Part shown: positions 13,932 through 52,427 of the stretch, one piece after another | Numbering within the stretch: the first letter of the stretch is position 1 | How the letters are laid out: every line of letters begins with the position of its first letter | Virus record (IMG/VR): IMGVR_UViG_3300035698_010612 | Coordinates: 3,252-67,251 of that record | Direction: 5' to 3' (one strand) | Source of the DNA: a virus | DNA: 64,000 bases | Notes under the pieces: generated by a model | Told to the model about the DNA's origin: nothing | Databases searched by the model: none | The model's input: only the letters and a program-made list of their open reading frames with translations | Program-made: the position numbers and the translations under genes

Positions 13932-16900
13932 ATGAAAAAACTTATTTTTATTGTTATTTTAATGTTGTTTTATTGCCCAAATGCGTTTGCTGCAATTAGC
14001 GAGGATGCTGATTGTGTTGGAGGTGTATGTGAACTAAGTGCTGTTGGTGGGACTCAGGAGTGTACTGCGGAAGATACACCTTATGATTGTTGCACTGGTG
14101 CTGATGCTGGCTGTACTGGTGATTATAGGACATGGAAAGGTTTTTGGAATGACTTAACTACTCTTACCGCAGACATAACCCTTCTTGTTGAGCCACATGT
14201 TTTTGTCGAAACAGTCTATCCTGGACAAGTAACCGAAGATTTAAATGGGTTTACTATTCACGTCAAGCCAACAGAGACTTATTATTACCCAACCTCATCT
14301 GATATTACAACAGGCCCACGTTTCGACTTGCAGTACACAACGTCTGATGAATTTCTTAATTTAAACGCTGCTGATACAGGGCATATAATCATTGAGGGTC
14401 TGAGTATTTATTCAACAACAGCAGGGAAGACTGCACCAGCAGCTTTTTTTCTTATCTCCAGTGTTGGAACATATACTACTACCTTACGGCGACTTAGCAT
14501 AAAGGGGGATGGTACAACCAATGCACAATATGGTATCCAGGAAAATACTGCTGCTGTAAGTCCACTCAAGGTATATAATAACTTCATTTATGATGTTTAT
14601 GCTGGGATTTATTTAAGTACTGCCCTTGCAGCAGGAAGCTATATAATAAACAATACAATTTATGGTTGTGAGGGGGCTGGAATTGACTTCAATGGACTTG
14701 CTGCGATTGCTAACAATAATTATGTATATGACACGGTAGCTGCAAGTAGTGATTTTTTAGACCCCGATGGTGCAATTGGCTATAATAATGGATGTACTGA
14801 TGCAAGTTGTGCTGATGCCGAGTGGTCTACTGGAGCTGGTAATCAAGATAGTAAGACATTCGCATCTTTTACCCTTACTAGCTGGGCTAATGATGAGTAT
14901 TTTCTCAACGCCAGTGCCGTTACACAGGTTAATTTAGGTGTAGGAGACCACTCATCTACCGATGATGATTTGGTAGCCTATTATAAATTTGAAGATGGAG
15001 CTTTAAAGGTAGACTCGAGTACCAATTCTAATGCTCTAACTGATGACCTAGACGGAGCCCCATCTAGATATGTTGCCTCAGTGATAGTGGAGGATAGTTG
15101 TGCTTATTTTGAGGACGATGAAAGCTATTATAGAACATATGCTAATTTAACAACTGATTTTCCTGGTAAAAATGGCAACAAAGACTTAACAGCTTGTATG
15201 TGGTATATGCCTGGTGGTGATAGTGATGGTGATACTGCTGGATTGGTTGGTATTTATGCAGGTAATGTTGGGGAAATAATATGGCTTGTATGGAAAGATA
15301 CAAATGATAATATTGCATTTAAGAAAGGCTACAATGATGGGGCTAGCGAAGAGGAGATAAAGGAAACAGGTATTGCTTTACTTTGTGATTGGGCACATTG
15401 GTATCATGTATGTGTATCTTATGATGATTACGGTTCCGATTCTGCAAATACTGGTGATACAAAAATACAAGTTTATGACCTTACTGCAAATATTACTTAT
15501 ACTGAAGATGATTCTACGATGGATTATACTATGGATATTCATGTTGATGATACCCCGCTCTTTCAAATCAACAACCTCCTTTGGGATGGAACTGATTATG
15601 AAGAAGCAGGTCTTATAGATGACCTTCGTATTTACAACACTGCTTTATCCTTTGCTGAAATGGATGACATAAGACATCTTAGATTCTATGGTGATGCTTG
15701 TAACAGATCACGAATAGGTAATTATGACATAGGAGCAGACGAATATATTGTTGATGATATTTATTACATGTCAGATAGTGGCAGTGATGATGCCACTGGA
15801 CAGGATACATCTCATCCTTGGCTAACATTAGCCCATGCAACGGCATCTACTGATAGAGGTGATACCATAAGCCTTAACAAAGCGGATACATGGACAGGTG
15901 TTACATTCTATATCCCGTATCCAGGAATGACTATTAATGCTTATGGAGAAGGTGCTGACCCTATTATTGATTGCAACGATGCTGTTGATAATGGAATATG
16001 GGCTGGATATTTTGTGGATGATATTACCATTGATGGTATTGAAATAATAGATTGGAAGGATAGGGGCATATATGTTGCTTACAGTAAAGGTTTGGCAATT
16101 AAGAATTGTACCATTTCAAGTGCTGAAGTAGGAGATGCAAACGATGGTTGGCTTCAAGGAGACGGCATACTTGTTTACAATGATGGAGCTGGTCATGTCA
16201 ACAGCTCTGGTTCTGGTTTAACAATACAGGACAATGTGTTTGAAGGCGAATTTATGGGTGAGATTTATGAGGATTTTCTAAATCTTGCTTACAAGTGTAT
16301 TTTAGTGCAGGGGTGTAGTGATGTAACGATTACAGGGAATACAATGGATCCTGGTGCTTATACTGGAGGCATAGGAGTTCTGTGGAACTCCACAACAGAA
16401 GAAACCTGTGAGGCTGTAACCATAGATGATAATGTAATAAATTCTTCCTATGCTGCTATGTATTTTGTGGGGTGGAGTGGAACAAATTCTATATGCAATA
16501 ATATTATTAAGGAGTCTGACTTCTGGAGCATGGGCATCCACGATTTTAGTGGAACAACTTTAATAGGTTGGAATGATATGAGTGGGGGAACTGGGTGTGG
16601 TATTAATTTGAATCGTGCAGATAATGTAGCACTTGTTTTTAACTTAATTTACGATAAGGATTTTTTTGAGGGGGGGGTAACAGACCTTTATAATGGTATT
16701 GATATTAGTCGTTATTCTGATGATGGGTTGTTATACCACAACACTATTTATGATATATATCATGGTTGTATTACTTTAGAGGCTTATGACAATGAACCTT
16801 GTACTGGATGGACTATGATGAACAATGTTTTGGATGCTTCTGCTAATGACCTTCACGGAGGAAATGCAACGGCATTTTACTATGAATGGTATGAATCGGG

Positions 16901-17303
16901 AGACATGGATCTCAATTCAGATTGTAATATCTTTTTCCCCTATCCTGAAAAGGAAGGTATTAGGGTTCGTGTTTCTACAAAATTTGATTATGTAACATTA
17001 GCAGAATGGCGAATATTGCAGGGGACAACTTATAGCCAAACCTACTATGATGTTCATTCTTTTGATACCGACCCAATGTATCTTAGCCGAGTTAAAGATG
17101 CAGAAGATTTTCGGGTGGAAGGTACTTCCCCTGGTAGAAATTCTGGAGCTGATTTATCTGCTTATTTTGATGGAACTCCTGCTTATGTTGATTTGAATGA
17201 TACCGTAGTTCCAGGTGGTTCTGGACCTGATATGGGTGCGTATGAATTTCATGAGGTGATTAATATTTTAATGGAACATTATAGGAGGAGAAGGGTATGG
17301 TGA
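13932..17303 (+). CDS. 1123-aa signal-peptide protein with parallel beta-helix and LamG-like domains (putative fibre/adhesin)
   Basis: MKKLIFIVILMLFYCPNAFA; NNxIY beta-helix repeats; YYKFED...IDDLRIYN LamG; DIGADE/DMGAYE motifs. Confidence 0.75.
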   Translation: MKKLIFIVILMLFYCPNAFAAISEDADCVGGVCELSAVGGTQECTAEDTPYDCCTGADAGCTGDYRTWKGFWNDLTTLTADITLLVEPHVFVETVYPGQVTEDLNGFTIHVKPTETYYYPTSSDITTGPRFDLQYTTSDEFLNLNAADTGHIIIEGLSIYSTTAGKTAPAAFFLISSVGTYTTTLRRLSIKGDGTTNAQYGIQENTAAVSPLKVYNNFIYDVYAGIYLSTALAAGSYIINNTIYGCEGAGIDFNGLAAIANNNYVYDTVAASSDFLDPDGAIGYNNGCTDASCADAEWSTGAGNQDSKTFASFTLTSWANDEYFLNASAVTQVNLGVGDHSSTDDDLVAYYKFEDGALKVDSSTNSNALTDDLDGAPSRYVASVIVEDSCAYFEDDESYYRTYANLTTDFPGKNGNKDLTACMWYMPGGDSDGDTAGLVGIYAGNVGEIIWLVWKDTNDNIAFKKGYNDGASEEEIKETGIALLCDWAHWYHVCVSYDDYGSDSANTGDTKIQVYDLTANITYTEDDSTMDYTMDIHVDDTPLFQINNLLWDGTDYEEAGLIDDLRIYNTALSFAEMDDIRHLRFYGDACNRSRIGNYDIGADEYIVDDIYYMSDSGSDDATGQDTSHPWLTLAHATASTDRGDTISLNKADTWTGVTFYIPYPGMTINAYGEGADPIIDCNDAVDNGIWAGYFVDDITIDGIEIIDWKDRGIYVAYSKGLAIKNCTISSAEVGDANDGWLQGDGILVYNDGAGHVNSSGSGLTIQDNVFEGEFMGEIYEDFLNLAYKCILVQGCSDVTITGNTMDPGAYTGGIGVLWNSTTEETCEAVTIDDNVINSSYAAMYFVGWSGTNSICNNIIKESDFWSMGIHDFSGTTLIGWNDMSGGTGCGINLNRADNVALVFNLIYDKDFFEGGVTDLYNGIDISRYSDDGLLYHNTIYDIYHGCITLEAYDNEPCTGWTMMNNVLDASANDLHGGNATAFYYEWYESGDMDLNSDCNIFFPYPEKEGIRVRVSTKFDYVTLAEWRILQGTTYSQTYYDVHSFDTDPMYLSRVKDAEDFRVEGTSPGRNSGADLSAYFDGTPAYVDLNDTVVPGGSGPDMGAYEFHEVINILMEHYRRRRVW

Positions 17304-18742
17304 AGAAACTGTTTGTATTATTTCTCTTGTGTTGGTTTTGGACAGGTGGTGTCTGGGCGGGGAACTATCTTGAATACAATGCAGAGAATGTTATTCTCGT
17401 AGGCCCATTTCTTGATTATTTAGATGGGGTTACAGCTATTACTGATGTGGCTATATCATCGGGTGTTGGAGCGTGTTCATGGGAGGGTGTTGCCTGTACT
17501 GACATAGCAAATAATACCTGGAGTCATGTTGCTAATGGGTATTATTCACTCACGCTTGATGCAGGGGACGTTAATACTTACGGTCGCCTTCTTGTAAGTT
17601 TCTATGATGTGGATGATTTCGTTCCGGTATGGCATGAATTTACCGTTGTTACAACTAATGTATATGATTCGTTTGGTGGGGATGGGGCAGATAAACTACA
17701 GGTTGATGTAGTGCAGCTTGGGGACAGCACTCAATCGGGAACTGATTTAAAAGACTTCTCCGATGCTGGTTACAACCCTGCAACCGACAAAGTAACAGGT
17801 GTGCTATTAACGGATACTTGCACAGCCAATACAGACCTTGTTAGTGCAGCAGCAGTAGTGAATGAGTGGGAGTCTCAATCGCAAACAGACCCAACAGGAT
17901 TCTACGTTAATGTGCAAGAAGTGGATGATGTACCACAAACAGCTAACGACAACGGGGCTGATATAAACACCATTCTTACCAGTACGGCTGCAATAGATAC
18001 CAGCACTGAACTAAGAACACTACTTGCTGGGTCTGATACGGCATTAGCTACAGCAACGGCACTTGGTACAGCACAAACCGATTTAAATACCCTGACAGGC
18101 TCAGATGGTGCTACACTGGCAACTGCACAGGGGTTATATGCACCTGCGAAGGCTGGTGATGCCATGACACTCTCTGATGATGCAATAACTCTTAGCAAGT
18201 TTGATGAGTCAACAGCATTTCCTTTAGTTGCTTCTGATGCTGGTGCAGCACAAGTAGCAAGGGTGGGAGCTGACAGCGATACCCTTGAAGTCTTGAGTGA
18301 TGAGATAGCCGCACTTGTTGCTAGTCTTGCTACTGTAGATGATATTGCTGATGGCGTATGGGATGAAACAAGTACGGGGCATGTAACGGCTGGGTATGCA
18401 GGAGAGCAATTATGGACTGATGTGGATGCTATATTAGTTGACACAGCTGTTATTGGTGCTTTGGGTGTTGGCTTAACTGCTATTCCTTGGAATAGTGATT
18501 GGGACACAGAGGTTCAGTCTGAATGTGACGATGCTATAACAGCTAATACCTATATTGATATTATTAAACAGTTGGGTTTGGGACGAATGACAATCAACGA
18601 GACTGCCAACACGATGGTCATTTATGATGATGATGATACTGGTGAAGCTGCTCCCGATGGAACACCGTTAGTTACATTTGACCTTAAAGACATTGATGGT
18701 AATGCAGCACACTCAAGCATTTATGAAAGAATACCTGAATAA
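17297..18742 (+). CDS. Signal-peptide Ala/Asp/Thr-rich structural protein (putative fibre)
   Basis: MVKKLFVLFLLCWFWTGGVWA; IADGVWDE repeat; C-terminal TPLVTFDLKD. Confidence 0.65.
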   Translation: MVKKLFVLFLLCWFWTGGVWAGNYLEYNAENVILVGPFLDYLDGVTAITDVAISSGVGACSWEGVACTDIANNTWSHVANGYYSLTLDAGDVNTYGRLLVSFYDVDDFVPVWHEFTVVTTNVYDSFGGDGADKLQVDVVQLGDSTQSGTDLKDFSDAGYNPATDKVTGVLLTDTCTANTDLVSAAAVVNEWESQSQTDPTGFYVNVQEVDDVPQTANDNGADINTILTSTAAIDTSTELRTLLAGSDTALATATALGTAQTDLNTLTGSDGATLATAQGLYAPAKAGDAMTLSDDAITLSKFDESTAFPLVASDAGAAQVARVGADSDTLEVLSDEIAALVASLATVDDIADGVWDETSTGHVTAGYAGEQLWTDVDAILVDTAVIGALGVGLTAIPWNSDWDTEVQSECDDAITANTYIDIIKQLGLGRMTINETANTMVIYDDDDTGEAAPDGTPLVTFDLKDIDGNAAHSSIYERIPE

Positions 18743-18753
18743 AGGAATAGTGA

Positions 18754-19407
18754 ATGATAAAAAAAACAATATTGTTTCTGGCGATAACTCTTTTTCTGAC
18801 AGTGGGAGTGTGCGGAGCGGATACTCTTCTTGCGGGGATTGGCTCAGATACCAGCACATCAACAGGTAATTTCGGTATCTGGAAAGGCGTCCGATACCAG
18901 GCTGCGGCTTCGGGGGATGCCGCTTATTTTGGTATTTACTGCAAAACCTATGCGGGGGACAGGACGGATGATGACATAGGTTTTGCTGTTTATTCTGATG
19001 ATGGGGGGGATCCACCTTCTCCGAGTGCTTTAATGTTTCATGGATGTCTTGAAAATTATGACTGGACGGCTCAAGGGACAGGAGTGTTTCATGATATTAC
19101 TGTGGGGACTGTTGTAACAACTCGCACTATAACATCGGGTAGTTATTACTGGATATTTTATGGCGATTCTGTGGGAACTGATGGCGATGATTGTGTGTGG
19201 ACAGGGCGGTATAATGCGTCGAGCTGTTCTGATTTATCTTATAAGATGGGTTCTAATAATTGTGCTACCTTTTGCGTTCCCCCTACTGTTCTTCAAATGA
19301 CCACCAGATATAATGGTGATCCATTGTGCTGTGAGGGGTATGAGTGTAGTGGCAATTATACGTTCGGACTATGGAACACCAATGAAACAATCATGATTCT
19401 TAAATGA
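18754..19407 (+). CDS. Signal-peptide Cys-rich beta-sandwich protein
   Basis: MIKKTILFLAITLFLTVGVCGA; AVYSDDGG..P, ITSGSYYW. Confidence 0.65.
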   Translation: MIKKTILFLAITLFLTVGVCGADTLLAGIGSDTSTSTGNFGIWKGVRYQAAASGDAAYFGIYCKTYAGDRTDDDIGFAVYSDDGGDPPSPSALMFHGCLENYDWTAQGTGVFHDITVGTVVTTRTITSGSYYWIFYGDSVGTDGDDCVWTGRYNASSCSDLSYKMGSNNCATFCVPPTVLQMTTRYNGDPLCCEGYECSGNYTFGLWNTNETIMILK

Positions 19408-19414
19408 GGGATTT

Positions 19415-21208
19415 ATGAGTCCAGACATCCCAACCGGGGGCTACCCCGGAGGGAATATTCCAACAGGCGGATTTGGTGGGAAGGTAATTGAATTTTCGAC
19501 AACCATCAATATCCAAACAAGCACGTCCGATGTGCTGCTGGGTTTTATATTAGAGCTGTCTTCGGCTATTTCTGCCGTAACCGACGCATCAAATATTAAC
19601 CTTAATTCTCTAAGAGAAATATCGTCAACAATTAGCAATCAAACAGCCACATCGTCTTGCCAGCTTAATGTTTTACGGGAACTGTCGGCTGCTATCAGCA
19701 CTCAGACAAGCACAAGCGAAATAGAATTAGTCGGAGCGTGGCTTTTGGAATTTGCAACGACTATTAATGCTGCTACCTCAACAACTCCTGGGCTGTTAAG
19801 TGTCGTGCGGGAAATATCCTCTGCTCTGGCGGCTCAAGCTTCTGCATCATCAGCAAGCATTAACGTGGTTAGGTCGGTTGATTCTACTGCGTCGGTTGTT
19901 TCGAGTGCATCTTCGGTGGATGGGAACATTCTAAGAAACTTATCATCAAGTGCTTCTGTTGAAACATCCACCTCGATTGCTCAGATGCAGGCGTTACGAG
20001 GACTAACATCAACTGCCGATTGTTCAAGCAGCTTGTCATCACCACAGGTTGAGGTTTCAAGAGAGCTTTCTGCTACCGTTAGCACCCAGACAAGCACAAG
20101 CGAAATAGCAATAAACACAGCAGAACTTATAGATTTTGCAGCTACTATCAATGCCGCTATCTCAACATCGGCTGCGGCGTTGAGTGCAGTCCGGGAAATG
20201 TCAGCAACATTAAGTCCTGCAACAAATGCAGCGGGGAGCCTTAATGTCTTAAGGCCTTTGTCATCTACCATCAATGTTGCCTCCGACGCTGCGAGTATAG
20301 ACACAAGCATATTAAGGTTGATCTCGCTTACCTCTGCCTGGCAAACATCGACCTCGGACATCACGCTGACTATCGGGGCGGTGCCAATAGAATTGTCAGC
20401 TATTATTAATGCTGTAACTTCTTTATCTAACATTCAGTGTAATGTGGTGCGGGAAATATCCGGTATTGCCGCGATTCAATCATCCGTCAGCGATATCACA
20501 CTGGCACGGCTGCTACCGGTATCTGCAACAATAAACGGCCAGACCAGCACGGCCACAGCAGACATTTTAATTAGCAGATTACTTTCAGCAGCGATTAACG
20601 GGCAGGCATCAACTGCCAGTGTCCAGGCTAATATCTTAAGGGAATTATCAGCTACTTCGGCATGGTCAACTCTGACATCGGCAATAACTTTGCTAGTTGA
20701 AACTGCCGGAGTGATTGAGTTTTCAGCCCTGATTAATGCTGTTACTTCGACTTCAAGTATTAATGTTGCGGTGTTAAGAGAGCTATCCGCCACAATTGAC
20801 AATGTTATTAGTACCGCAAGCAGTGTTTTAGCTATATTGAGAGAGGTATCCGCCACAGCGGGTGTCCAAACCCTTACGTCTCAAATTGAATTATTAGTTT
20901 ATGACCTGATAAGTTTTTCTACTACCATTAATGCGGTTACAAGTACGACAAGCCCGGAGATGTTGGTAACAAGGCTGTTGTCTGCTACGGCTCCAATCGT
21001 AACCCAAACGGCTGATATTGATGTTCTGATTCTGAGACTATTGAGCTCAACCGTTGTGGCCAATTCTGCTCTTGCTGATATTGCTTTAAGCATCTTGGGG
21101 CTAGAGCCATGTTTTGTTAAAGACATTTCAAACACAGAGCTACATAGCATGGTTCTTAGGAATAGTGAACCTTACAGCATAACGATTAGCAATCAAGACA
21201 GTGGCTAA
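19415..21208 (+). CDS. Ser/Thr/Ala-rich repeat protein (~19-aa repeats), putative fibre shaft
   Basis: Recurrent (R)ELSA.I...TSTS units along ~560 aa. Confidence 0.7.
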   Translation: MSPDIPTGGYPGGNIPTGGFGGKVIEFSTTINIQTSTSDVLLGFILELSSAISAVTDASNINLNSLREISSTISNQTATSSCQLNVLRELSAAISTQTSTSEIELVGAWLLEFATTINAATSTTPGLLSVVREISSALAAQASASSASINVVRSVDSTASVVSSASSVDGNILRNLSSSASVETSTSIAQMQALRGLTSTADCSSSLSSPQVEVSRELSATVSTQTSTSEIAINTAELIDFAATINAAISTSAAALSAVREMSATLSPATNAAGSLNVLRPLSSTINVASDAASIDTSILRLISLTSAWQTSTSDITLTIGAVPIELSAIINAVTSLSNIQCNVVREISGIAAIQSSVSDITLARLLPVSATINGQTSTATADILISRLLSAAINGQASTASVQANILRELSATSAWSTLTSAITLLVETAGVIEFSALINAVTSTSSINVAVLRELSATIDNVISTASSVLAILREVSATAGVQTLTSQIELLVYDLISFSTTINAVTSTTSPEMLVTRLLSATAPIVTQTADIDVLILRLLSSTVVANSALADIALSILGLEPCFVKDISNTELHSMVLRNSEPYSITISNQDSG

Positions 21209-21270: not shown

Positions 21271-21286
21271 ATGGGAGGAACAGAAA

Positions 21287-44562: not shown

Positions 44563-46035
44563 ATGGCAAATGTTGTTACAAATGACCCGAACTGCAAAGC
44601 TCTATACAGGTTTGAATCAGGGGCATTAACTGTAGATTCAAAAGGGAGCAATACGCTTACCAATGTTGGTTCTGTTGCCGAAGATACTGATTCAGCCGAT
44701 GTCGTGGAAGGTGATTGTGCAGCCTACTTTGATGATACTGTTAATCAGTATTTGTACAGAACCGATGCAAATTTAGATTCGGGCTTCCCTTGCAAAAGCG
44801 GAGAAAGCAATCGAAGTTTCTCGTTCTCGTCTTGGTTTAAGCCCGATGCTGTAGGGATTCCCGCATTACAAGTATTGTTTGGGAAACTTTACGGTGGTTC
44901 TTTACAAAATTCTTTTTATGCTAATATGAGCAACAGTTCCAAAAAGATTTCACTTGGTATGTATCGGGACGGAACCGACACGGTAGATTTTTTGACCCAC
45001 GATTCCGTTTTGACCGATGATGGGAACACTTGGTATCACATAACCTTTACATTTGATTCAGTCACGAAAGCACGACGAATACGAATACAGGATGCGGTGG
45101 GGGCTACCGTAGGAACTGACAAAACCGATACCTGGGGGTATCAGATTAATATCGGCAATGCATGGTTTTACATTTCTTCGGCTACGGTTCAGAATGTTGG
45201 TGGCAACATAGATGAGTTCGTAGTTTTTAATGATGTTCTTACTGTTGACGAAACAGATGCTATCAGGGCTGGCACTTATGTTTATATTGAATTTATAACC
45301 GCTAATGCCATTGGCTTCCTTTGTGACCTTGTTGATCTCGATTCAACCGCAGCTTGCGATAACGAAGACAGTAGCTTCCTTCTGGAAAATGCCACCGAAG
45401 ATTATGACCGACCATTCAAACGGCTCCACGCACAAGACACAACCGAGACCACAATAGATTTAGGGTATCAATCAGCTATTGATTCCCTATTCATTGGTAA
45501 CTGCAATTTCGATAGTTTTAAAATAGAAGTTAGTAGCATTCAATATGATTTCACAACAGTTATGGATAAAGATACCGGTTGTTACAATGCACTCGTCCGC
45601 ATAGAAGATTCGATAACCAGCTTAAAATTAATCATACCCTCGCAAACACCAAACAACGGCGAATCGTTTTTTGCTATCGGTGTGCTTGTCGCTGCCGTCC
45701 GGGCAGACTTTACTAAAAACCCACAATACCCATTAGATAAAAAGCTGGAAGAACCCACTTTTAAAATGCGGTTTGACGGCCAGAATACCGAAGTTCAGAA
45801 CATCGGCAGACCCTACCACCTCATCAAATACAACTGGAATGCGATAAACGATGTTGATATCGAAGAGCTCCAGGATATTGTCAGGGAACTTGGACAGGCG
45901 GGGATCGGGGTATTGTATGAAAAACGGGATGATTACGAAGCAGCTTATCTATGCCAGCTTTTGGGCGGGTTCTCACATCCAAGAATATTAAATGAACACT
46001 ATCAGTCATCGTTAGAGTTCAGAGAGGTCGTATGA
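44563..46035 (+). CDS. Tail tip protein with N-terminal LamG-like domain
   Basis: LYRFE...WYHITFT...IDEFVVFN; position after TMP. Confidence 0.65.
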   Translation: MANVVTNDPNCKALYRFESGALTVDSKGSNTLTNVGSVAEDTDSADVVEGDCAAYFDDTVNQYLYRTDANLDSGFPCKSGESNRSFSFSSWFKPDAVGIPALQVLFGKLYGGSLQNSFYANMSNSSKKISLGMYRDGTDTVDFLTHDSVLTDDGNTWYHITFTFDSVTKARRIRIQDAVGATVGTDKTDTWGYQINIGNAWFYISSATVQNVGGNIDEFVVFNDVLTVDETDAIRAGTYVYIEFITANAIGFLCDLVDLDSTAACDNEDSSFLLENATEDYDRPFKRLHAQDTTETTIDLGYQSAIDSLFIGNCNFDSFKIEVSSIQYDFTTVMDKDTGCYNALVRIEDSITSLKLIIPSQTPNNGESFFAIGVLVAAVRADFTKNPQYPLDKKLEEPTFKMRFDGQNTEVQNIGRPYHLIKYNWNAINDVDIEELQDIVRELGQAGIGVLYEKRDDYEAAYLCQLLGGFSHPRILNEHYQSSLEFREVV

Positions 46036-46802
46036 TTCTTTTATCAAGCATTACCGACTTTGATTCCGGCTGTACCGCTACGAGTGAGGAAACGGATTAT
46101 GATTTAGACAATGTCCTTGACTATGAAAAGCCGTGGTTGAAGTGGCGATCAACAAATACAGATGCACAGACCCTTACTCTGAATTATACGGGTGCGATAG
46201 ATTGCATTGCTATTTTTGGGGCGAACTTTGACGACATTACAATAGGGGCGGGGGCTGGTTTTGGTGCTGAACCTTTTGGGGCATTCCCCTTTGGTGGCGG
46301 GGGTGGCGGGGGATCAGACGAAACGCTTGGTTATCTAAGGGCTCTCGGTGAATATCGAGGGTTTTTTTCTTTTGCAAATATATCAGATTCCATTCAATTA
46401 ATAATCCCCAGTCAAAGTGTTGATGAAGATTATTATACTATATCCGCTATAGTGATCGGGGTTAAAACTACACTTACAGACAAGCCATTAAGTCCCCTCG
46501 AAAAAGAACTAATCCTTCCGGTAAATGAAGTTATGCTGGAAAGCAAAGTTCCCAAAAAATCAGCATTGGGAAGTGGCTATCATATTCTCAAAGCAAACCG
46601 CAGGGGGCTTGACATATCGGGGCTTGATGAACTAAGGGCAATCAAAAGAGCAAAAGGCAAAGCGAGTATTTTTGTTGTATATGAGAACCTTGGGAAAACA
46701 CAGGATGTCTTTTTGGTGAGACGGACAGAAAATTTCGCATACAAAGAGGCGGGGTATCACGACTATCAAGATAATTTAATTTTGGAAGAAATAGCCGGAT
46801 GA
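46032..46802 (+). CDS. Distal tail-like protein with Gly-rich insertion
   Basis: Resembles C-terminal half of previous gene; GFGAEPFGAFPFGGGGGG. Confidence 0.55.
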   Translation: MILLSSITDFDSGCTATSEETDYDLDNVLDYEKPWLKWRSTNTDAQTLTLNYTGAIDCIAIFGANFDDITIGAGAGFGAEPFGAFPFGGGGGGGSDETLGYLRALGEYRGFFSFANISDSIQLIIPSQSVDEDYYTISAIVIGVKTTLTDKPLSPLEKELILPVNEVMLESKVPKKSALGSGYHILKANRRGLDISGLDELRAIKRAKGKASIFVVYENLGKTQDVFLVRRTENFAYKEAGYHDYQDNLILEEIAG

Positions 46803-49012
46803 ACATTAGAAATTTAGTTGATATAAATTTAGGTGATGGTGACATCAAACATTATGCCACCGAAGACAGAGAGTTTCCTGTTTCAAGTCCCGTTTCTTAT
46901 GAGGGACGGCTAATCAGTTCTGGAACAATCGGTGTTTCATTGTCAGATATTTATTTCGGATCCAGGGTATTTGCAAATGCTACTATAACCCTCGATGACA
47001 CAGACGGAGGGATCAGGGCTATATGGAATGCTAATGAGATGCGGGGTAAAGCGGTAACGGTAAAAAGAGTTGATATTGATGCGGACTCGGTACTGGAATC
47101 ACATTATTTTACTATTAATACAGTTAAGTTTGCAGGTGTAAACAATAAAGTCAACATCGGATTAATGCCAGAGAATTTAGAACTGTTCAAACAGTTAATA
47201 CCCAAAGATAAAATTACAATTGACGATTACCCCAATGCCCTCGAAGCATCCCTGGGCTTACCGATCCCTATTGTTTTCGGTGCGGGTCATGAAAAGATAC
47301 CATGCCCTAATATCAATTATGATGATAGTGCCAGCGAGTGGGATTACCTTATCGGATATGGGATCATAAGCGACGTATCAAGCGTTTACAGATATCTTGG
47401 TGATAGAGAATGGCTTGTCGCTGAAAGTGAATATGACTTTTATGATGGCAGTCAGTCCGCACCCTATCCGGGGTTTGCTTTTATAAGATTCGACTCGCAG
47501 CAAGAAGATGCAAACGGTACTCGGTATAATATTTATTGTGATTGTGATGGCATAGAAAATGAGGGCTCATCCAGTTCCGGCAGCATGGACGGTGCATTAA
47601 AACAGTTACAACGGTTATTGACCGACGCTGAATTTGGGCTTGAACTTACCTGCAACAATACATCTTTCAATACCGCCCAGGCTATATTGGACGGATGGGG
47701 ATTGACAAGCAGGGCCTATATCGGGGAGCAGAAAAGTGCTAGTGAATGGATTGACCAGTTTTTAATGGTGGCTCGAATGGCACAGCTAAAGCAGGGATCA
47801 TCCGGTTATGAGGTAGAGATTGAAGCTTACAATGGAACGCCCGTTGCAACCTTTGATGAACATAATTTAAAGATTATATCAGACACCAAAAGACCTTATG
47901 TGGAGTACATATCAGCAGTTCATTTTAATTATGACCGGTCTGAATTTTTTAGAAAGTTTAATAAATTACTAAAGAAATATGTGGCTGCTACAACGAATAT
48001 ATTTAGCAACGACCCTCATTGTGTTGCTTTATACAGATTTGAAGAAGATGCGATTGGAATAGATTCTAAGCAAGGGAACAACCTTACTAATAGTGGTGCA
48101 ACGGTAGATACTGATTCCAGCGACGTAATGGAAGGCGAAGCATCAGCTTATTTCGCTGAATACGGCGATTATTTATATATATTACCTGCAAAACAAAGTT
48201 CTAATTTTCCATTCAAGGGGGGAACGACTAACACAAAGATGAGCCTTGCAGGATGGATTAAGCCTTACAATACAGGCGTGTTTGCAGGCTTGTCAGGCAA
48301 GGCTGGGATCTATAACAACTATATGTCATTCGGGATATACAAAGACACGGACGACAAATTAGTAGTAGAAGTGGGCGACGAAGACGGGGAGAGTGCCGAT
48401 GCTGTTTTTGGAGTAGCTTTCAACTGTGATGGAAATCATTGGTATCATATTGGAGTTACTATTGATGGAGTGACGGGTGCGTACCTAGTAAGGATATGGG
48501 ATGAAACAGCACAAGACTTTTTAGACACCGATGAAACGGGGACTTTTAGTGCATCTGCTTTTGTCTTACCTGTCAGAATGTCATACAGAACTTTTACGAT
48601 TGGGACTAACTACGCAGGCAATGCTGCCAACTGGCTCACTAGCTGGGCTGATGAACTTGCTTTGTTCAACGACATTTTAACCACCGCCGAAATAAATGAT
48701 ATACGTCAGGCTCAATACGGTTGGGATGATGTAGCAGGTATCATAAAAGAATACAATAGTTATTTTTGCTCCGACAGCACAACCGCTGCAAGGATCGCTG
48801 AATTTATTAGGAATAAATTTAAATATCAAGACAGGCAAATCAAGGGACTGGCCGGGATTGATGCAGCAAGTCTATTGAATGGAAACGTGCTTAGTCTTAC
48901 CAATAGTGCGTTGGGGTTATCATCGTCATTATATCAAATTCTCAACATATTAAAGAAGGCAAACGATTATGAAATTTTAGCGGGTGCGTATTCTCAAGAT
49001 ATATTTCTATAA
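46799..49012 (+). CDS. Baseplate hub/tail tip protein with inserted LamG-like domain
   Basis: GLPIPIVFG; internal LYRFE...WYHIGVT...DELALFN. Confidence 0.65.
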   Translation: MNIRNLVDINLGDGDIKHYATEDREFPVSSPVSYEGRLISSGTIGVSLSDIYFGSRVFANATITLDDTDGGIRAIWNANEMRGKAVTVKRVDIDADSVLESHYFTINTVKFAGVNNKVNIGLMPENLELFKQLIPKDKITIDDYPNALEASLGLPIPIVFGAGHEKIPCPNINYDDSASEWDYLIGYGIISDVSSVYRYLGDREWLVAESEYDFYDGSQSAPYPGFAFIRFDSQQEDANGTRYNIYCDCDGIENEGSSSSGSMDGALKQLQRLLTDAEFGLELTCNNTSFNTAQAILDGWGLTSRAYIGEQKSASEWIDQFLMVARMAQLKQGSSGYEVEIEAYNGTPVATFDEHNLKIISDTKRPYVEYISAVHFNYDRSEFFRKFNKLLKKYVAATTNIFSNDPHCVALYRFEEDAIGIDSKQGNNLTNSGATVDTDSSDVMEGEASAYFAEYGDYLYILPAKQSSNFPFKGGTTNTKMSLAGWIKPYNTGVFAGLSGKAGIYNNYMSFGIYKDTDDKLVVEVGDEDGESADAVFGVAFNCDGNHWYHIGVTIDGVTGAYLVRIWDETAQDFLDTDETGTFSASAFVLPVRMSYRTFTIGTNYAGNAANWLTSWADELALFNDILTTAEINDIRQAQYGWDDVAGIIKEYNSYFCSDSTTAARIAEFIRNKFKYQDRQIKGLAGIDAASLLNGNVLSLTNSALGLSSSLYQILNILKKANDYEILAGAYSQDIFL

Positions 49013-49027: not shown

Positions 49028-49567
49028 ATGAAAAAGACAGCTTTAATTACCATCCTTATCGGGATGGTTTTTGTTTGGGTGCTGTGTGCTTATGCACAGC
49101 TTGATACAGGAAGCTATACAACCAATAGTTATTTTTACCAACCTAGCTATGGTGATTATGGCAGTACCCATTATACAAAAAGAATGGCTGCTCTTGACGT
49201 GGCAGACAGGGGAATTAACGTCGGCAATTCGCTTTACTGGTCATTGGAATATCCGGTATCGGGTGATAATTTCGGGGCTAAACGAGTTCCAACGGCAGTA
49301 ACCATTACAAAGGTTATTGCCGTTTTGCAAGAAGATGCAAGTGCAACGGTTGACATTAATTTCAAGCATGGAACCGACAGAAGCGGAGCCGGTGAAGTCG
49401 ATTTATTTAGTGCCGACGAGGAAATCTCATCAAAGACAACGGGTGATGATTTTGATTCGTTTAACGATGCTACCCTGGCAGCCAATGAGTGGATATGGCT
49501 TGAAGTGACAGCAAATAGCGGAACGGTAGAAGCACTAGACGTAACCATTGAAGTGTCGGTTGATTAG
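49028..49567 (+). CDS. Signal-peptide tail-associated protein
   Basis: MKKTALITILIGMVFVWVLCAYA; beta-sandwich C-terminus. Confidence 0.65.
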   Translation: MKKTALITILIGMVFVWVLCAYAQLDTGSYTTNSYFYQPSYGDYGSTHYTKRMAALDVADRGINVGNSLYWSLEYPVSGDNFGAKRVPTAVTITKVIAVLQEDASATVDINFKHGTDRSGAGEVDLFSADEEISSKTTGDDFDSFNDATLAANEWIWLEVTANSGTVEALDVTIEVSVD

Positions 49568-49643
49568 GGAAATCAACATTTTTATTAACCATGTGTATTT
49601 AAAAGGCTCTGATTATTCAGGGTCTTTTTTTATGGGAGATGAA

Positions 49644-51623
49644 ATGAAAACCAAGATAATATTATTTACAGTGTTTGTGTGGTTGTTTGCAACAACGGGG
49701 TATTGCACCACTTATTATATGCAGGAAAGTGGCACAAATGCCGACCCTGATTGTTCTGAAAGTTCTGCTTGTTGTGCAAGTGCAATGGATATGCCAGACT
49801 TTAACGCTGCTACATTTGCTGGTGATGACATTATCTATGTTTGCGACGATGATGGAGTTTACCGTAGCCAGATGATTCCCCCCGACAGTGGTACGAGCGG
49901 GCATCAAATAACTGTCAAAAATGCTCCTGGGGACAGCCCCATTATAAATGGTGCTGATGATGTTACTGGTGTTAGTGGTAATTGGGCTGAACAAGGGGAC
50001 GGTATTTGGAGAAAGGATATTGGTTCCGTAGAACCATTTGCAGTTTTCTTTGATTCAACCCATGTCGGAGTTGAAGATGCTACACCCGACACAGAATATG
50101 AGTGGACGTATTCTGACCCTAATTTAGATGTTTACACATCGGCTGGGGACGATAACCCCGTAGACCATTATACTCTAATAGAAGCGACACAAAGAAATGT
50201 TGGGATTAGGTTAGATGATGATATAGATTTTATCACTTTTGATGGGCTTGAGATAGCGAACCACGGTGCAACTGATGTTGCTACGGGTGTCCCTGGTGCA
50301 ATTACTGATGCTTATGCCGAGACAACATTTGCCACTGATATTACCATTCAGAATTGTACGTTTACAAACAACATGGCTTCTATAACCATAAGGGAAGATA
50401 CCGCTGGCACGGGTAGCGATAGATGGTTAATCGACAACAATACTTTTACTGCTTGGGATGGTGCGGTAGGAATTTCTGTTGCTGGGCCGAGCAATATAAC
50501 TATTTCTAACAATACATTATCCGATTTTAAAAAGGGCATGTTCCTTACGGGGGTTGGTAGTAACATTACCATAGATACTAATACGGTGACTAGATATGCT
50601 CATTTTGGAATTGATTTTGAGCCTACTGGTGGTGACCACTTTACTGTTACTGATAATATAGTAAGGGAGCCAACCGGAAATTATGACGCATATGAATTAG
50701 CATTTTTATGTAGCCCTACGGATGTAACGATTACTGGCAATAGTTTTTACCAAGATGGAAGTGCTTATGGTGATAGTGGGATTATAGTTGATATGTATGA
50801 CGGTGGTCAAGCGACTATAACTGACAACTATGTTGAGGGTGCAAAATGTATGGGGATGTATATCCTTGGTGGTGATGGGCATACTATAAGCAATAATCAT
50901 TTTAAAGATTGTGGTGATGGTTGTCATAGTGGTACAGCGGGGCAACATGGACTAAGCGTTGCAAGTGCTAGTTGGCAAGCCGCAGACCGCACAGCAGAAA
51001 ATCATGTTGTATCCTATAACATATTTGATAATTGCTATAGTTCTATTTATTTAGTTGAAACCATAGTGGCTGCATCATCTGGTCATAAAGTTTATAATAA
51101 CACGATTGCTAATGCAATAGGGCAATATGGATTTAGAGCCTTTGGGGAGATTACGGGGGTTGAGTTTAAAAATAATATTATTACTGGCACCTCAGATAAA
51201 CTGATATGGATTGACCAATTTTTCATTGGTTCCATTACCTTGAACAATAACTGTTATGATGGTACTGGAACCTACAGGTGGGATCTTACATCTCATGCAA
51301 CCCTGGCACTTTATCAGACAGCTTCTAGTAAAGATGCAAACTCCAAAGAAGCAGACCCCCTCTTTGTTGATGCTGCTGGTGGGAATTTTGGGTTAAAATT
51401 TGGAAGTCCCTGTATAAATGCAGGAACGAATTTAGGGCCTCCATACAACGATGCTCTGGATCCCCGCGATTTGACTTTCCCTTATGATACCTTCGATCAA
51501 GATTTCTATGCTCCATGGGAAATTGGGGCGAAAGCATACATAAGAAGATATGACATTGGATTTGTTAAAGATGTTTTGCAGAACCTTACATTTTATAAAA
51601 CAGATGAAATCGTAAAAGAATAG
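49644..51623 (+). CDS. Signal-peptide parallel beta-helix protein (putative tailspike/receptor binding)
   Basis: MKTKIILFTVFVWLFATTGYC; PbH repeats; ADPLFVD...SPCINAG...EIGA. Confidence 0.75.
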   Translation: MKTKIILFTVFVWLFATTGYCTTYYMQESGTNADPDCSESSACCASAMDMPDFNAATFAGDDIIYVCDDDGVYRSQMIPPDSGTSGHQITVKNAPGDSPIINGADDVTGVSGNWAEQGDGIWRKDIGSVEPFAVFFDSTHVGVEDATPDTEYEWTYSDPNLDVYTSAGDDNPVDHYTLIEATQRNVGIRLDDDIDFITFDGLEIANHGATDVATGVPGAITDAYAETTFATDITIQNCTFTNNMASITIREDTAGTGSDRWLIDNNTFTAWDGAVGISVAGPSNITISNNTLSDFKKGMFLTGVGSNITIDTNTVTRYAHFGIDFEPTGGDHFTVTDNIVREPTGNYDAYELAFLCSPTDVTITGNSFYQDGSAYGDSGIIVDMYDGGQATITDNYVEGAKCMGMYILGGDGHTISNNHFKDCGDGCHSGTAGQHGLSVASASWQAADRTAENHVVSYNIFDNCYSSIYLVETIVAASSGHKVYNNTIANAIGQYGFRAFGEITGVEFKNNIITGTSDKLIWIDQFFIGSITLNNNCYDGTGTYRWDLTSHATLALYQTASSKDANSKEADPLFVDAAGGNFGLKFGSPCINAGTNLGPPYNDALDPRDLTFPYDTFDQDFYAPWEIGAKAYIRRYDIGFVKDVLQNLTFYKTDEIVKE

Positions 51624-51634
51624 GAGGTATAGTT

Positions 51635-52018
51635 ATGAAAAAAGCAATTGCCATAATTGCCATTGTTTTGTTTTTGTTGGTTCCTGCAGCAGCCTTCTCA
51701 GGTGTAAGCGTAACACAAACGATTGACGGGGCCCCCGGTGAAAGTGGAACATGGACTGATGCGATAACCACAGTGTTTAATAATACCGGTGCTTATGTTC
51801 CTGGCTATATTAATGTCAGTGTTTACGGTGCGACTTGGAGTGCAACGGTTACGCTGCAAAGGAAATTCAAAGCTGATGCGACCTGGTATGATGTGGATTC
51901 ATGGACTTCTAATGCACAGGCAGCACTTACCGATACCGAAAAGGGCGTGACTTATAGAATCGGTGTGAAATACGAGGAGTTTACCTCCGGCTCGGTTGCC
52001 GTGAGGTTAAGTAAATAA
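51635..52018 (+). CDS. Signal-peptide beta-sandwich protein
   Basis: MKKAIAIIAIVLFLLVPAAAFS; ATVTLQR, YRIGVK. Confidence 0.7.
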   Translation: MKKAIAIIAIVLFLLVPAAAFSGVSVTQTIDGAPGESGTWTDAITTVFNNTGAYVPGYINVSVYGATWSATVTLQRKFKADATWYDVDSWTSNAQAALTDTEKGVTYRIGVKYEEFTSGSVAVRLSK

Positions 52019-52040
52019 ACCTTTTTATGTGGAGGATGCT

Positions 52041-52427
52041 ATGAAAAAGATAGTTTTTTTATTATTTTTAATGCTGTTCTACGCCACTACTGCTATGGCA
52101 GGTGAAAAGACATTGCAATTCACCTGGGATCAAGATGTTCCGTCTGATATGGGCGGGTGGAAACTATATCAATCAATATCCCCGATGACAGACTGTAAAA
52201 TTGATGGCACAGAGGTAATGAACATTGTTTATACCGGGCAAACAGAATATCAGGCCACTCATCAGCTTACATCACCCGATGGACAGACAGCAACCTATTA
52301 CTGGCGGTTGACCGCTTATGATACATCTGCGAATGAGAGTGATTGTTCAAACGAAGTATCAAAGGCCATTGACTTTGAAACACCTGGAATACCGTTTAGT
52401 TTGGATGTGGTTATTATCGCTCAGTAG
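52041..52427 (+). CDS. Signal-peptide fibronectin type III protein
   Basis: MKKIVFLLFLMLFYATTAMA; TWD, GWKLY, YYWRLTAYD..NES..SNEV. Confidence 0.8.
   Translation: MKKIVFLLFLMLFYATTAMAGEKTLQFTWDQDVPSDMGGWKLYQSISPMTDCKIDGTEVMNIVYTGQTEYQATHQLTSPDGQTATYYWRLTAYDTSANESDCSNEVSKAIDFETPGIPFSLDVVIIAQ

What the first reader, a model, noticed from the sequence alone, without database searches (positions are those of the whole stretch)
13932..52427. At least eight genes in the virion operon encode Sec-type signal peptides: possible exported, disulfide-bonded virion appendages
Seen: basic-hydrophobic-small-residue N-termini at 13932, 17297, 18754 (head module) and 43975, 49028, 49644, 51635, 52041 (tail module). 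Several mature regions are Cys-clustered (e.g. ECTAEDTPYDCCTGADAGC, DCSESSACC), acidic, and built from beta-helix, LamG and FN3 folds. They are co-oriented and closely packed with structural genes, and occupy the positions of head and tail fibres. The capsid, tail tube, tape measure and hub proteins lack such peptides. Established: tailed virions assemble in the cytoplasm, and structural disulfides form in the periplasm. Inference: fibres or spikes are exported, folded oxidatively and joined to particles at or after lysis (two-compartment assembly). Alternatively they remodel the host surface.
Basis: partly seen in the sequence, partly recalled or inferred. Interest (0 to 1): 0.85.

Follow-up and report, generated by a model that had tools for sequence, protein, structure and literature searches.

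The report
Phage fibre and enzyme genes with export signals
A tailed, integrase-carrying phage from salt-lake metagenomes puts classical export signals on eight of its outermost, host-surface-directed proteins but on none of its core particle proteins, which implies that these proteins leave the cytoplasm where phage particles are normally built.

Summary
All eight N-termini (13932, 17297, 18754, 43975, 49028, 49644, 51635, 52041) have the basic, hydrophobic and small-residue (-3/-1) layout of Sec/signal-peptidase-I signals. Seven follow a Shine-Dalgarno site. None has a lipobox or twin arginines. Core proteins (terminase, portal, capsid, tube, tape measure, tail tip) lack them.

The density is unusual: 8 of 40 late-operon ORFs, against 106 of 2901 (3.7%) in 159 related viral loci (p about 1e-4).

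The signal is a modular add-on. 17297 belongs to a very large phage fibre family whose members normally start exactly where its mature part starts; 11 of 120 homologs carry a signal, gained at least 4-5 times on a tree. SP-less relatives of 49644 begin at the residue that follows its signal.

43975 is a MOA-type papain-like Cys-His protease. 13932 and 49644 are beta-helix proteins.

Export is therefore well supported. Joining to virions after lysis is neither shown nor excluded. I favour envelope-directed accessory roles (receptor or glycan cutting and masking) for most of the set, with 17297 the best candidate for attachment after lysis.

The disulfide rationale is only half supported. Host unknown; a Planctomycetota lead is weak. 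No SignalP was available.

The parts
13932..17303 (+). 1123-aa exported protein: signal peptide (1-20), Cys-rich stretch (7 Cys in residues 28-61), first beta-helix-like region, LamG (about 342-585), second beta-helix (about 635-1000), short hydrophobic plus RRRR C-tail
   Evidence: signal, Cys. (Pfam Beta_helix 1.6e-14, Laminin_G_3 3e-6). (LamG paralogous to 44563 and 46799); 4 of 4 homologs of the N-region also start with SP-like N-termini.
17297..18742 (+). 481-aa exported member of a large phage fibre family: signal (1-21), Ig-like N-domain (22-130), helical fibre-like rest
   Evidence: 777 homologs at E<=1e-3. (the signal is an extension in front of the family's usual first residue). (at least 4-5 gains or losses). 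(AF2, N-domain pLDDT 83-96). (BFVD tail protein, minor tail, tail fibre, BppU hits).
18754..19407 (+). 217-aa exported Cys-rich (9 mature Cys) beta-sandwich, lectin-like protein
   Evidence: (Atlas: unnamed clusters at 0.93; nearest named cluster DUF4082, mostly viral, at 0.89, a lead only).
19415..21208 (+). 597-aa SP-less protein in the same terminator-flanked block; its relatives lie next to Gp80-like fibre genes in other phages
   Evidence: (hits in L001, L002, L003 beside the 21287 homolog).
21287..22060 (+). SP-less tandem Gp80-type fibre building block
   Evidence: Pfam PF23140 Gp80, 9.5e-68, 2 stretches. (passages of PMC13730344 on chain-like fibres).
43975..44562 (+). 195-aa exported protein: signal (1-26), Cys/Thr-rich linker, papain-like Cys-His protease-like domain (about 65-195; C124, H158)
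   Evidence: 215 homologs. (C124 and H158 invariant in 118 sequences). (Agglutinin_C above cut-off in homologs). (AF2 pLDDT 82; MOA/PSL1a protease domain E 4e-5, TMq 0.49-0.51).
44563..49012 (+). SP-less tail-tip genes: 44563 (LamG plus a domain shared with 46032), 46032, 46799 (737 aa with LamG)
   Evidence: No SP-like N-terminus. The roles as distal tail and hub proteins are inferred from position; no family hit.
49028..49567 (+). 179-aa exported protein with a C-terminal jelly-roll / carbohydrate-binding-like domain of a phage-typical kind
   Evidence: (Atlas: nearest clusters 88-100% viral, score 0.90; structure TM 0.61 to a viral 135-aa cluster).
49644..51623 (+). 659-aa exported beta-helix protein: signal (about 1-21), Cys motif (37-44), Beta_helix/NosD, DUF5123
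   Evidence: Beta_helix 5e-20, DUF5123 1.9e-8. (phrog_2234 tail spike 1.7e-14). (SP-less homologs start directly at the residue that follows the signal here).
51635..52018 (+). 127-aa exported protein, no Cys, no family
52041..52427 (+). 128-aa exported small beta-rich protein; its signal resembles that of 13932
   Evidence: (phrog_31834 tail protein, E 0.0077, weak). (signals 55% identical over 20 aa; 40 of 66 nt).
13885..13925 (+). Terminator-like hairpin with a T-run in front of the first SP block; similar ones lie at about 21236-21272 and 49605-49632, and a G/C hairpin at about 52443-52470 after the last SP gene
   Evidence: ViennaRNA folds of the intergenic stretches. The consensus scans did not list them, and totals there were not above shuffles.
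55250..56383 (-). Tyrosine integrase; marks the phage as temperate
   Evidence: Phage_integrase 6e-13, SAM-like N-domain 5.8e-7.

Best explanation
The eight genes encode genuine Sec / signal-peptidase-I preproteins.

Together they are the phage's outermost, host-surface-directed tool set:
- two large beta-helix (glycan-enzyme-like) proteins;
- one protein of a widespread tail-fibre family;
- one papain-like Cys-His protease;
- four small beta-sandwich binding modules.

The signal is a detachable N-terminal add-on that phage families normally made in the cytoplasm have acquired repeatedly.

Shown: the sequence features, their enrichment, and their add-on nature.

Inferred: during late expression, and possibly also from the prophage, these proteins cross the inner membrane and lose the signal. 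They then fold in the envelope compartment of a diderm-type host.

My preferred reading of what they do there is that most act on the producing cell's own envelope. They would cut or mask surface glycans and proteins that serve as receptors or hold cells in a matrix. That would limit superinfection and the loss of progeny on debris, and would ease release. They would not be built into the particle in the cytoplasm.

17297 keeps the family's N-terminal domain and is the member most likely to be picked up by particles once lysis mixes the compartments.
For: Signals:
- Canonical n/h/c layout at all eight starts.
- Shine-Dalgarno support at 7 of 8.
- No lipobox, no RR motif, no extra membrane segments.
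- 8 of 40 late ORFs against 3.7% in 159 related loci.

Add-on nature:
- In the fibre family 11 of 120 listed homologs carry a signal by my script, always in front of the family's usual first residues.
- Only 1 of 73 identified homologs in IMG/VR loci carries one.
- The label needs 5 changes on a 98-row tree, 4 of them forced by well-supported branches.
- SP-less relatives of 49644 start at the residue that follows its signal.
- The 72%-identical relative of 43975 has a diverged signal but a conserved mature part.

Enzyme and accessory character:
- 43975 has invariant Cys and His and a MOA-type protease fold. A close homolog sits in a non-tail context (L168).
- The beta-helix proteins run from the signal straight into a Cys motif and helix, with no separate N-domain.
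- Terminator-like hairpins flank the blocks 13932-21208 and 49644-52427.
- An integrase lies 3 kb beyond the last block.
- A further SP protein lies in the early region at contig 900-1658, minus strand.

Precedent, recalled or seen as abstracts only: lambda Lom and Bor (recalled); T5 Llp (PMC9586334, listing and abstract); the bacterial exported tailspike-like enzyme WceF (PMC7949094, listing and abstract).
Against: - 17297 retains the conserved N-terminal Ig-like domain of its SP-less relatives. In fibres this is usually the particle-docking end, and a mere soluble decoy would not need it.
- 13932 shares its LamG module with the SP-less tail-tip proteins 44563 and 46799.
- 49028 looks like phage-typical binding domains.
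- The genes are translationally packed among virion genes.
- Promoter-like sites are not above shuffles, so independent moron-type expression is unsupported.
- A soluble protein exported by Sec in a diderm reaches only the periplasm. Action on the outer surface would need a further step that I cannot see.
- No PADLOC family matches.
- No expression or proteome data exist. The host is unknown.
Confidence: 0.45

Rival explanations
1. Two-compartment assembly. Core particles form in the cytoplasm. The fibres, spikes and binding modules are exported, fold (partly with disulfides) in the periplasm, and dock onto particles when holin and endolysin action merges the compartments.
For: - 17297 is an in-register member of a tail-fibre family with its N-terminal Ig-like domain intact. 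Its BFVD matches are tail, minor-tail, tail-fibre and BppU proteins.
- The LamG module is shared between 13932 and the tail-tip proteins.
- 49028 resembles viral binding domains.
- 49644 hits a tail-spike PHROG.
- The genes are tightly coupled to virion genes.
- The mature parts are as acidic as the exposed SP-less virion proteins and richer in Cys than the SP-less structural set.
- Signals were gained repeatedly in the fibre family, so the exported form is viable and selected.
Against: - No tailed phage is known to me to assemble this way, and nine literature searches found no report.
- No docking partner was identified.
- The beta-helix proteins show no adaptor domain.
- 43975 is an enzyme whose relatives occur outside tail modules.
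- Within families, SP-bearing members are not richer in Cys.
- Rapid dilution at lysis would make docking inefficient (inference).
Confidence: 0.3
2. Lysogenic-conversion cargo. The SP genes are expressed mainly from the prophage and give the host new surface or matrix properties (adhesion, matrix turnover, exclusion of other phages). They have no role in the lytic cycle.
For: - Integrase present.
- The last SP block lies at the end of the tail module next to the integrase region, and the blocks are flanked by hairpins.
- Another SP protein lies in the early region.
- In other phages (L025, L030, L054, L059), blocks of five SP genes sit inside structural modules.
Against: - No promoter signal above chance.
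- The genes are co-oriented and overlap with late genes.
- 17297, 49028 and the LamG module are phage-type parts, not host-type cargo.
- No RNA data are available.
Confidence: 0.15
3. The N-termini are not cleaved export signals but uncleaved membrane anchors or timing devices. They would hold the proteins at the cytoplasmic membrane until lysis. Alternatively, they are chance hydrophobic starts.
For: Cleavage cannot be tested here. 49644 and 18754 have less clear cleavage sites. A 19-residue hydrophobicity window over the N-terminus scores 1.8-2.7 in 6 of the 8, not in 17297 or 49644.
Against: - Six of eight have textbook A/V-x-A type sites 20-26 residues in.
- Eight by chance is unlikely.
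- Independent homologs have the extension at the same register with unrelated sequence, as expected of working signals.
Confidence: 0.08

Closest known systems
Accessory genes with export signals inside phage late operons (lambda lom and bor; T5 llp next to the receptor-binding gene; cor of phi80/N15). Recalled, except T5 Llp (PMC9586334, listing and abstract only).
   Same: Co-oriented genes among or just after tail genes. Their products carry export signals, act in the envelope of the producing cell, and are not particle parts. The phage here is temperate.
   Different: The known ones are single small outer-membrane proteins or lipoproteins unrelated to virion parts. Here there are eight. 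None is a lipoprotein. Several are built from fibre, tailspike-like and tail-tip modules, up to 1123 aa.
Phage tail fibres and tailspike depolymerases (right-handed beta-helix; TP901-1 BppU-type N-terminal anchor domains).
   Same: Beta_helix domains and a tail-spike PHROG hit. 17297 has strong family membership and an Ig-like N-domain. That domain is compatible with BppU-type anchors but not distinguished from generic Ig folds (BFVD E 8.8e-4 and 2.1e-3; TP901-1 ORF48 N-domain Z 5.8).
   Different: Known fibres and spikes are made and attached in the cytoplasm and have no signal peptide. No adaptor domain was found on the two beta-helix proteins.
Pantoea stewartii WceF, a bacterial exported glycan-modifying enzyme with a tailspike-like fold (PMC7949094, listing and abstract only).
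   Same: A tailspike-type beta-helix protein that carries an export signal and works on envelope or matrix glycans as a free enzyme.
   Different: WceF is a chromosomal bacterial gene in an exopolysaccharide cluster. Here the genes lie inside a phage virion operon.
MOA / PSL1a papain-like cysteine protease domains (Pfam Agglutinin_C). More loosely, periplasmic LapG-type proteases that cut surface adhesins.
   Same: 43975: the fold matches MOA and PSL1a (E 4e-5 to 1.3e-4, 138-145 aligned columns, rmsd 2.9-4.6). Cys and His are invariant. It is exported, like LapG.
   Different: MOA is a fungal lectin-protease. The LapG match is weak (E 0.17-0.49). The window protein itself scores below Pfam's cut-off (20.4 against 26.8). 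No substrate is known.
Filamentous phages (Inoviridae), whose coat proteins are all exported and assembled at the membrane (recalled; PMC4823517 seen as listing only).
   Same: Virion-type proteins with Sec signals; disulfides formed in the periplasm.
   Different: Here the core particle (HK97-type capsid module, tube, tape measure) has no signals and is of the cytoplasmic tailed-phage kind.

Membership tests
Sec / signal peptidase I signal peptide | Positively charged n-region directly after the start codon | tested here: met
   All eight have a net +2 before the hydrophobic run. Starts are supported by Shine-Dalgarno sites in 7 of 8.
Sec / signal peptidase I signal peptide | Uncharged hydrophobic h-region of about 10-20 residues | tested here: met
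   Best 8-residue Kyte-Doolittle mean is 3.0-3.8 in all eight.
Sec / signal peptidase I signal peptide | Small residues at -3 and -1 of a site 15-30 residues in | tested here: met
   AFA, VWA, CGA, AYA, AMA and AAA/AFS sites are clear. 18754 and 49644 are less clear. Home-made script, not SignalP.
Sec / signal peptidase I signal peptide | Actual export and cleavage | not testable with these tools
   No proteome or fusion data; no RNA run listed.
Lipoprotein (SPase II) exclusion proteins of the Llp/Cor type | Lipobox L-[ASTVI]-[GAS]-C with Cys at +1 | tested here: not met
   Cys residues near the cut in 18754, 43975 and 49644 are preceded by V, F/P and Y.
Tat signal | Twin-arginine motif in the n-region | tested here: not met
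   The n-regions carry K, not RR.
Phage fibre family of 17297 (no Pfam or PHROG name) | Significant full-family sequence similarity including the N-terminal domain | tested here: met
   777 hits at E<=1e-3, best 2.9e-73. Invariant G36, G81, G96 and near-invariant P37, D43, G44, T46 are kept.
Phage fibre family of 17297 | Family members are particle-attached tail or head fibres | tested here: inconclusive
   Context: the end of the tail module in Microcystis phage Mvi-Yong1342-1 and the head-to-neck region in L162. BFVD names are tail, minor tail and tail fibre. PDB matches are only generic Ig folds, Z at most 7.2. No virion proteomics seen.
Tailspike / depolymerase | Right-handed parallel beta-helix | tested here: met
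   Pfam Beta_helix: 13932 1.6e-14, 49644 5.1e-20. phrog_2234 1.7e-14.
Tailspike / depolymerase | N-terminal particle-binding (adaptor) domain | tested here: inconclusive
   None recognised. The mature N-termini go into a Cys motif and the helix, and SP-less homologs start at the same point. No structure of these two was predicted.
Moron (independently expressed accessory cassette) | Own terminator and promoter flanking the gene(s) | tested here: inconclusive
   Terminator-like hairpins lie before 13932, 21287 and 49644 and after 52427. Promoter-like sites are not above shuffles: 42 against 38.4, and 32 against 43.7.
Moron | Expression from the prophage | not testable with these tools
   Only DNA runs are listed.
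Papain-like cysteine protease, MOA type (Pfam Agglutinin_C PF18021), for 43975 | Fold and catalytic Cys/His | tested here: met
   AF2 pLDDT 82.2. MOA/PSL1a E 4.2e-5 to 1.3e-4, TMq 0.47-0.51. C124 and H158 are invariant in 118 sequences.
Papain-like cysteine protease, MOA type (Pfam Agglutinin_C PF18021), for 43975 | Score above Pfam's gathering cut-off | tested here: not met
   The window protein scores 20.4 bits against 26.8. Homologs P0180, P0179 and P0148 pass at 31.2, 30.5 and 27.2.
Membrane-assembled phages (inovirus type) | Major particle proteins themselves exported | tested here: not met
   Capsid, decoration, tube, tape measure and tail-tip proteins have no signal.

The most novel reading that the evidence does not exclude
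A tailed phage splits its morphogenesis between two compartments. The DNA-filled core is built in the cytoplasm. The receptor-binding periphery (at least the 17297 fibre, possibly the beta-helix enzymes and small binding modules) is exported by Sec, matures in the envelope, and docks only when lysis merges the compartments. Because signals were gained at least 4-5 times in one fibre family, this would be a recurrent strategy of uncultivated phages rather than a one-off.
Probability: 0.27. Interest if true: 0.9.

Novelty: new variant of a known kind. Interest (0 to 1): 0.6.

Why it matters
Textbook tailed-phage assembly is wholly cytoplasmic. Export signals in late operons are known only for lysis proteins and a few small accessory proteins.

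Here a whole peripheral tool set, including a bona fide fibre-family protein, carries them. The same add-on recurs independently in roughly a tenth of one very large fibre family.

Whichever reading is right, there is something to learn:
- If exported receptor-cutting or masking proteins are built from the phage's own binding modules, that is a new kind of accessory set.
- If fibres dock after lysis, that is a new assembly route.

Either way it adds a rule for annotating metagenomic phages: a signal peptide does not exclude a fibre. It also offers a source of secretion-competent, salt-adapted glycan enzymes. And it gives a directly testable question about where phage adsorption organs fold.

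Tried and rejected
**Hypotheses tested and dropped**
- Dual isoforms from an internal start at the end of the signal. There is no in-frame start near the cut in 17297. The Met at residue 26 of 49644 is a conserved fold residue in homologs. Rejected.
- 'Signal gained for disulfides'. Within families there is no Cys excess in SP-bearing members. Not supported as a general rule.
- Lipoprotein or Tat signals. Rejected.

**Host search**
- The fibre alignment found 7 genome loci. Five are labelled Planctomycetota, one Zixibacteria, and one 'uncultured archaeon' that is the same contig as one of the five.
- The capsid protein gave 0 of 5 matches in those genomes. In 401 genomes of that phylum it gave only 11 weak matches, best 28% identity.
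- One homolog of 13932 is labelled Deltaproteobacteria DG_8 and one fibre homolog Kariarchaeaceae.
- The host is therefore not established.

**Searches for closer relatives that found nothing**
- Viral scans found nothing for 46799, 49644 (23), P0007 (25), 43975 (58), 13932 (96) and 49028 (127).
- The first metagenome scan found nothing. The second gave one 3.4-kb contig.

**Family and structure searches without a result**
- PDB sequence searches: none for 43975, and only E>=0.25 for 17297.
- PHROGs, NCBIfam and PADLOC gave nothing useful for the small proteins.
- The blocks of five SP genes in L054 have no Pfam family.
- No tRNA found.

**Sequencing runs**
- No RNA holder is listed. Five DNA runs labelled salt lake metagenome hold part of the stretch.
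- Laid contigs were identical to the window, so they gave no variants and no expression data.

**Not used**
- Complex prediction: I have no specific partner to claim.
- SignalP is not available; supplements are closed and were not consulted.

**Literature**
Nine searches gave no report of Sec signals on tailed-phage fibres. This covers only the held open-access library. One search was badly worded and returned unrelated papers. PMC3338817 and PMC8143477 mention SignalP only in their methods.

Full report
**What the record is**

The window is bases 3252-67251 of a single 67,251-bp virus contig with an exact 53-bp terminal repeat, so it is probably a complete genome.

PHROG and Pfam hits give a siphovirus-type late operon on the plus strand:
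- large terminase 7528, portal 8970;
- MuF-like head protein 11628, which also carries an intein with a homing-endonuclease domain;
- protease/scaffold 22362, decoration protein 24037, capsid 24562;
- a 10-kb island of methyltransferases, two radical-SAM proteins, glycosyltransferases and a sulfotransferase (26-36 kb);
- neck genes, tail tube 37883, chaperones, tape measure 39120-43973;
- three tail-tip genes without a family name.

An Amidase_2 endolysin lies at 6065. A tyrosine integrase lies at 55250-56383 on the minus strand, so the phage is temperate.

Five DNA runs labelled salt lake metagenome hold part of the tail region. Their contigs are identical to the window. No RNA run is listed.

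**The observation**

Translating from the eight claimed starts gives textbook tripartite N-termini:
- two net positive charges;
- an uncharged run with a best 8-residue Kyte-Doolittle mean of 3.0-3.8;
- small residues at -3/-1 some 20-26 residues in. These are AFA, VWA, CGA, AYA, AMA and AAA/AFS; the sites are less clear in 18754 and 49644.

Seven of the eight ATGs follow a GGAG-type ribosome site. None has a lipobox or a twin arginine. None has a second membrane-like segment apart from a mildly hydrophobic, family-conserved stretch at 17297 residues 378-397.

The predictor is my own crude script; SignalP was not available.

At its stricter setting the script flags exactly these 8 of 40 plus-strand ORFs between 13900 and 52450. 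It flags 106 of 2901 ORFs (3.7%) in 159 IMG/VR loci of related phages (Fisher one-sided p=1.1e-4).

Terminase, portal, capsid, tube, tape measure and tail-tip proteins have no such start.

The quoted Cys clusters exist. Beta_helix and Laminin_G_3 are confirmed. FN3 is not confirmed by any search.

**What the eight proteins are**

13932 (1123 aa) has a Cys-rich stretch, two beta-helix regions and a LamG module. The LamG module is paralogous to those of the SP-less tail-tip proteins 44563 and 46799. All 4 homologs found for its N-region also begin with SP-like N-termini.

49644 (659 aa) is Beta_helix/NosD plus DUF5123, with a tail-spike PHROG hit.

17297 (481 aa) has 777 homologs at E<=1e-3, many on phage-sized contigs.
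- The AF2 model has a helical residue 1-16, then a confident Ig-like sandwich at 22-130 (pLDDT 83-96), then low-confidence helices.
- BFVD matches are named tail protein, minor tail protein, L-shaped tail fibre and BppU (30 hits at E<=1e-3).
- PDB matches are only generic Ig folds. Phage baseplate chains and the TP901-1 BppU N-domain are tied among them at Z 5.8-6.5, which is inconclusive.

43975 (195 aa) has a signal, a Cys/Thr-rich linker and a domain with 215 homologs.
- C124 and H158 are invariant in 118 aligned sequences.
- Its AF2 model (pLDDT 82.2) matches the papain-like protease domain of the fungal lectins MOA and PSL1a. The values are E 4.2e-5 to 1.3e-4, TMq 0.47-0.51 and 138-145 aligned columns.
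- Homologs pass Pfam's Agglutinin_C cut-off, though the window protein itself does not.

49028 resembles phage-typical jelly-roll binding domains, and 18754 resembles lectin-like sandwiches. Both are Atlas leads only.

51635 and 52041 have no family. 52041 has a weak tail-protein PHROG hit.

**The signal is an add-on**

This is the strongest new result.
- In the fibre family the usual protein begins directly with the conserved N-domain. The window protein, and 11 of 120 listed homologs by my script (one more by eye), carry a signal in front of it, in the same register.
- Among 79 IMG/VR loci, an ORF homologous to 17297 could be identified in 73, and only one has a signal.
- On a quick maximum-likelihood tree of 98 N-domains the SP label (8 rows) needs 5 changes, 4 of them forced by well-supported branches. 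So signals were gained or lost several times.
- In the 49644 family, 10 of 17 homologs are flagged. Four SP-less ones begin at the very residue that follows the signal in the others.
- The closest relative of 43975 (72% identity) has a conserved mature part and a diverged but still hydrophobic signal. That is the pattern expected of a working signal.
- The signals of 13932 and 52041 resemble each other (55% over 20 residues; 40 of 66 nt).

**Context**
- Terminator-like hairpins with T-runs lie just upstream of 13932, 21287 and 49644, and a G/C hairpin follows 52427. The blocks 13932-21208 and 49644-52427 therefore look like cassettes.
- The consensus scans do not show promoters or terminators above shuffles.
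- The first block also holds the SP-less 19415. Its relatives lie beside Gp80-type fibre genes in other phages. It is followed by 21287, a tandem Gp80 fibre unit (passages of PMC13730344).
- In relatives these Gp80-type genes follow the tape measure. The fibre cluster here therefore sits unusually, inside the head module.

**Disulfides**

Mature SP proteins hold 1.98% Cys, against 0.78% in 20 SP-less structural proteins (odds ratio 2.6, p=7e-7). This fits oxidative folding.

Within each family, however, SP-bearing members are not richer in Cys than SP-less ones:

| Family | SP-bearing | SP-less | Note |
|---|---|---|---|
| fibre (17297) | 0.40% | 0.48% | |
| beta-helix (49644) | 1.45% | 1.54% | |
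| protease (43975) | 1.98% | 1.53% | p=0.07 |

The Cys richness therefore belongs to the families, not to the signal.

Acidity is shared with the exposed SP-less virion proteins.

**Weighing the readings**

Export itself I rate at about 0.85.

For what follows export, several points favour envelope-directed accessory roles for most of the set:
- 43975 is an enzyme.
- No adaptor domain is recognisable on the beta-helix proteins.
- The blocks have a cassette-like layout.
- The phage is temperate.
- There are known precedents of exported accessory proteins in late operons.

Other points keep post-lysis docking alive, above all for 17297:
- the retained N-domain of 17297;
- the LamG module shared with the tail tip;
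- the phage-type binding domains;
- the tight coupling to virion genes.

I could not name a docking partner, so I did not spend the complex prediction.

**Host**

A scan of species genomes with the fibre alignment gave 7 loci, 5 of them in MAGs labelled Planctomycetota. Some of these have SP-bearing proteins in their phage regions.

The capsid protein finds only weak matches in 401 genomes of that phylum, and other homologs carry other labels. The host is open.

The short (20-26 residue) signals and the amidase endolysin suggest a diderm bacterium with peptidoglycan. This is an inference.

**Comparison and novelty**

Exported proteins encoded in late operons are known: Lom, Bor, Llp, Cor, secreted endolysins and spanins.

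In nine searches of the held literature I found no report of Sec signals on members of tail-fibre families, or of a whole peripheral set carrying them. This covers the open-access library only.

I therefore class it as a new variant of a known kind, with a bolder reading (two-compartment assembly) at about 0.27.

Noticed in passing
window 11628-13868: The MuF-like head morphogenesis protein (746 aa) carries an intein. Pfam Intein_splicing and Hint-type hits flank a DUF559 / MTES_1575 endonuclease domain between residues about 320 and 680.
   Followed up: no
window 26046-35912: A 10-kb island lies between the capsid gene and the neck genes. It holds two methyltransferases, a radical-SAM protein, a radical-SAM/SPASM protein, GT2-type glycosyltransferases, two paralogous unnamed genes (33444 and 34543, 39% identical) and a sulfotransferase. 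It may modify virion or envelope glycans; the Thr-rich linker of 43975 could be a target.
   Followed up: partly
L025 3465-6118; L030 4959-7621; L054 13767-16429; L059 8881-11543: Four related IMG/VR contigs (GC 0.43-0.46) have Gp80-type fibre genes. Each holds five consecutive signal-peptide genes (about 175, 289, 165, 123 and 133 aa) inside the structural module. None has a Pfam family. This is a second, unrelated case of an SP block among virion genes.
   Followed up: partly
contig 900-1658, minus strand (outside the window, upstream of window base 1): A 252-aa protein with a clear signal peptide (cut VFA/ERH) lies in the early/regulatory region.
   Followed up: no
window 4403-6775: Probable lysis region: an 88-aa protein with one membrane segment (4403); a 106-aa protein with a signal-anchor and 8 Cys (5096); the Amidase_2 endolysin (6065); and an 81-aa Cys-rich protein (6530). 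No clear spanin pair was seen.
   Followed up: no
window 13932-13997 and 52041-52106; window 52038-52071: The signal-coding starts of 13932 and 52041 share 40 of 66 nt. In runs X3 and X4 a contig matches only bases 52038-52071 and continues with unrelated sequence on both sides (table 7). The same signal-coding start may therefore head another gene in that community, or it may be a low-complexity match.
   Followed up: no
window 13932-17303 C-terminus; P0292, P0005: After the final conserved G-A-Y-E/D motif, several beta-helix proteins end in a short hydrophobic stretch followed by 3-5 arginines. The function is unknown; a sorting or docking tail is conceivable.
   Followed up: no
L162 and L163: Two records, one labelled Planctomycetota and one uncultured archaeon, hold near-identical contigs of about 111 kb (111,222 and 111,280 bp). 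Each has a phage structural region and an SP-less 937-aa fibre homolog. The binning of one of the two is probably wrong.
   Followed up: no
window 52440-52475: A long G/C hairpin (runs of C and G around a 4-nt loop) lies right after the last late gene, between the tail module and the integrase side. It may be a terminator or part of the attachment region.
   Followed up: no
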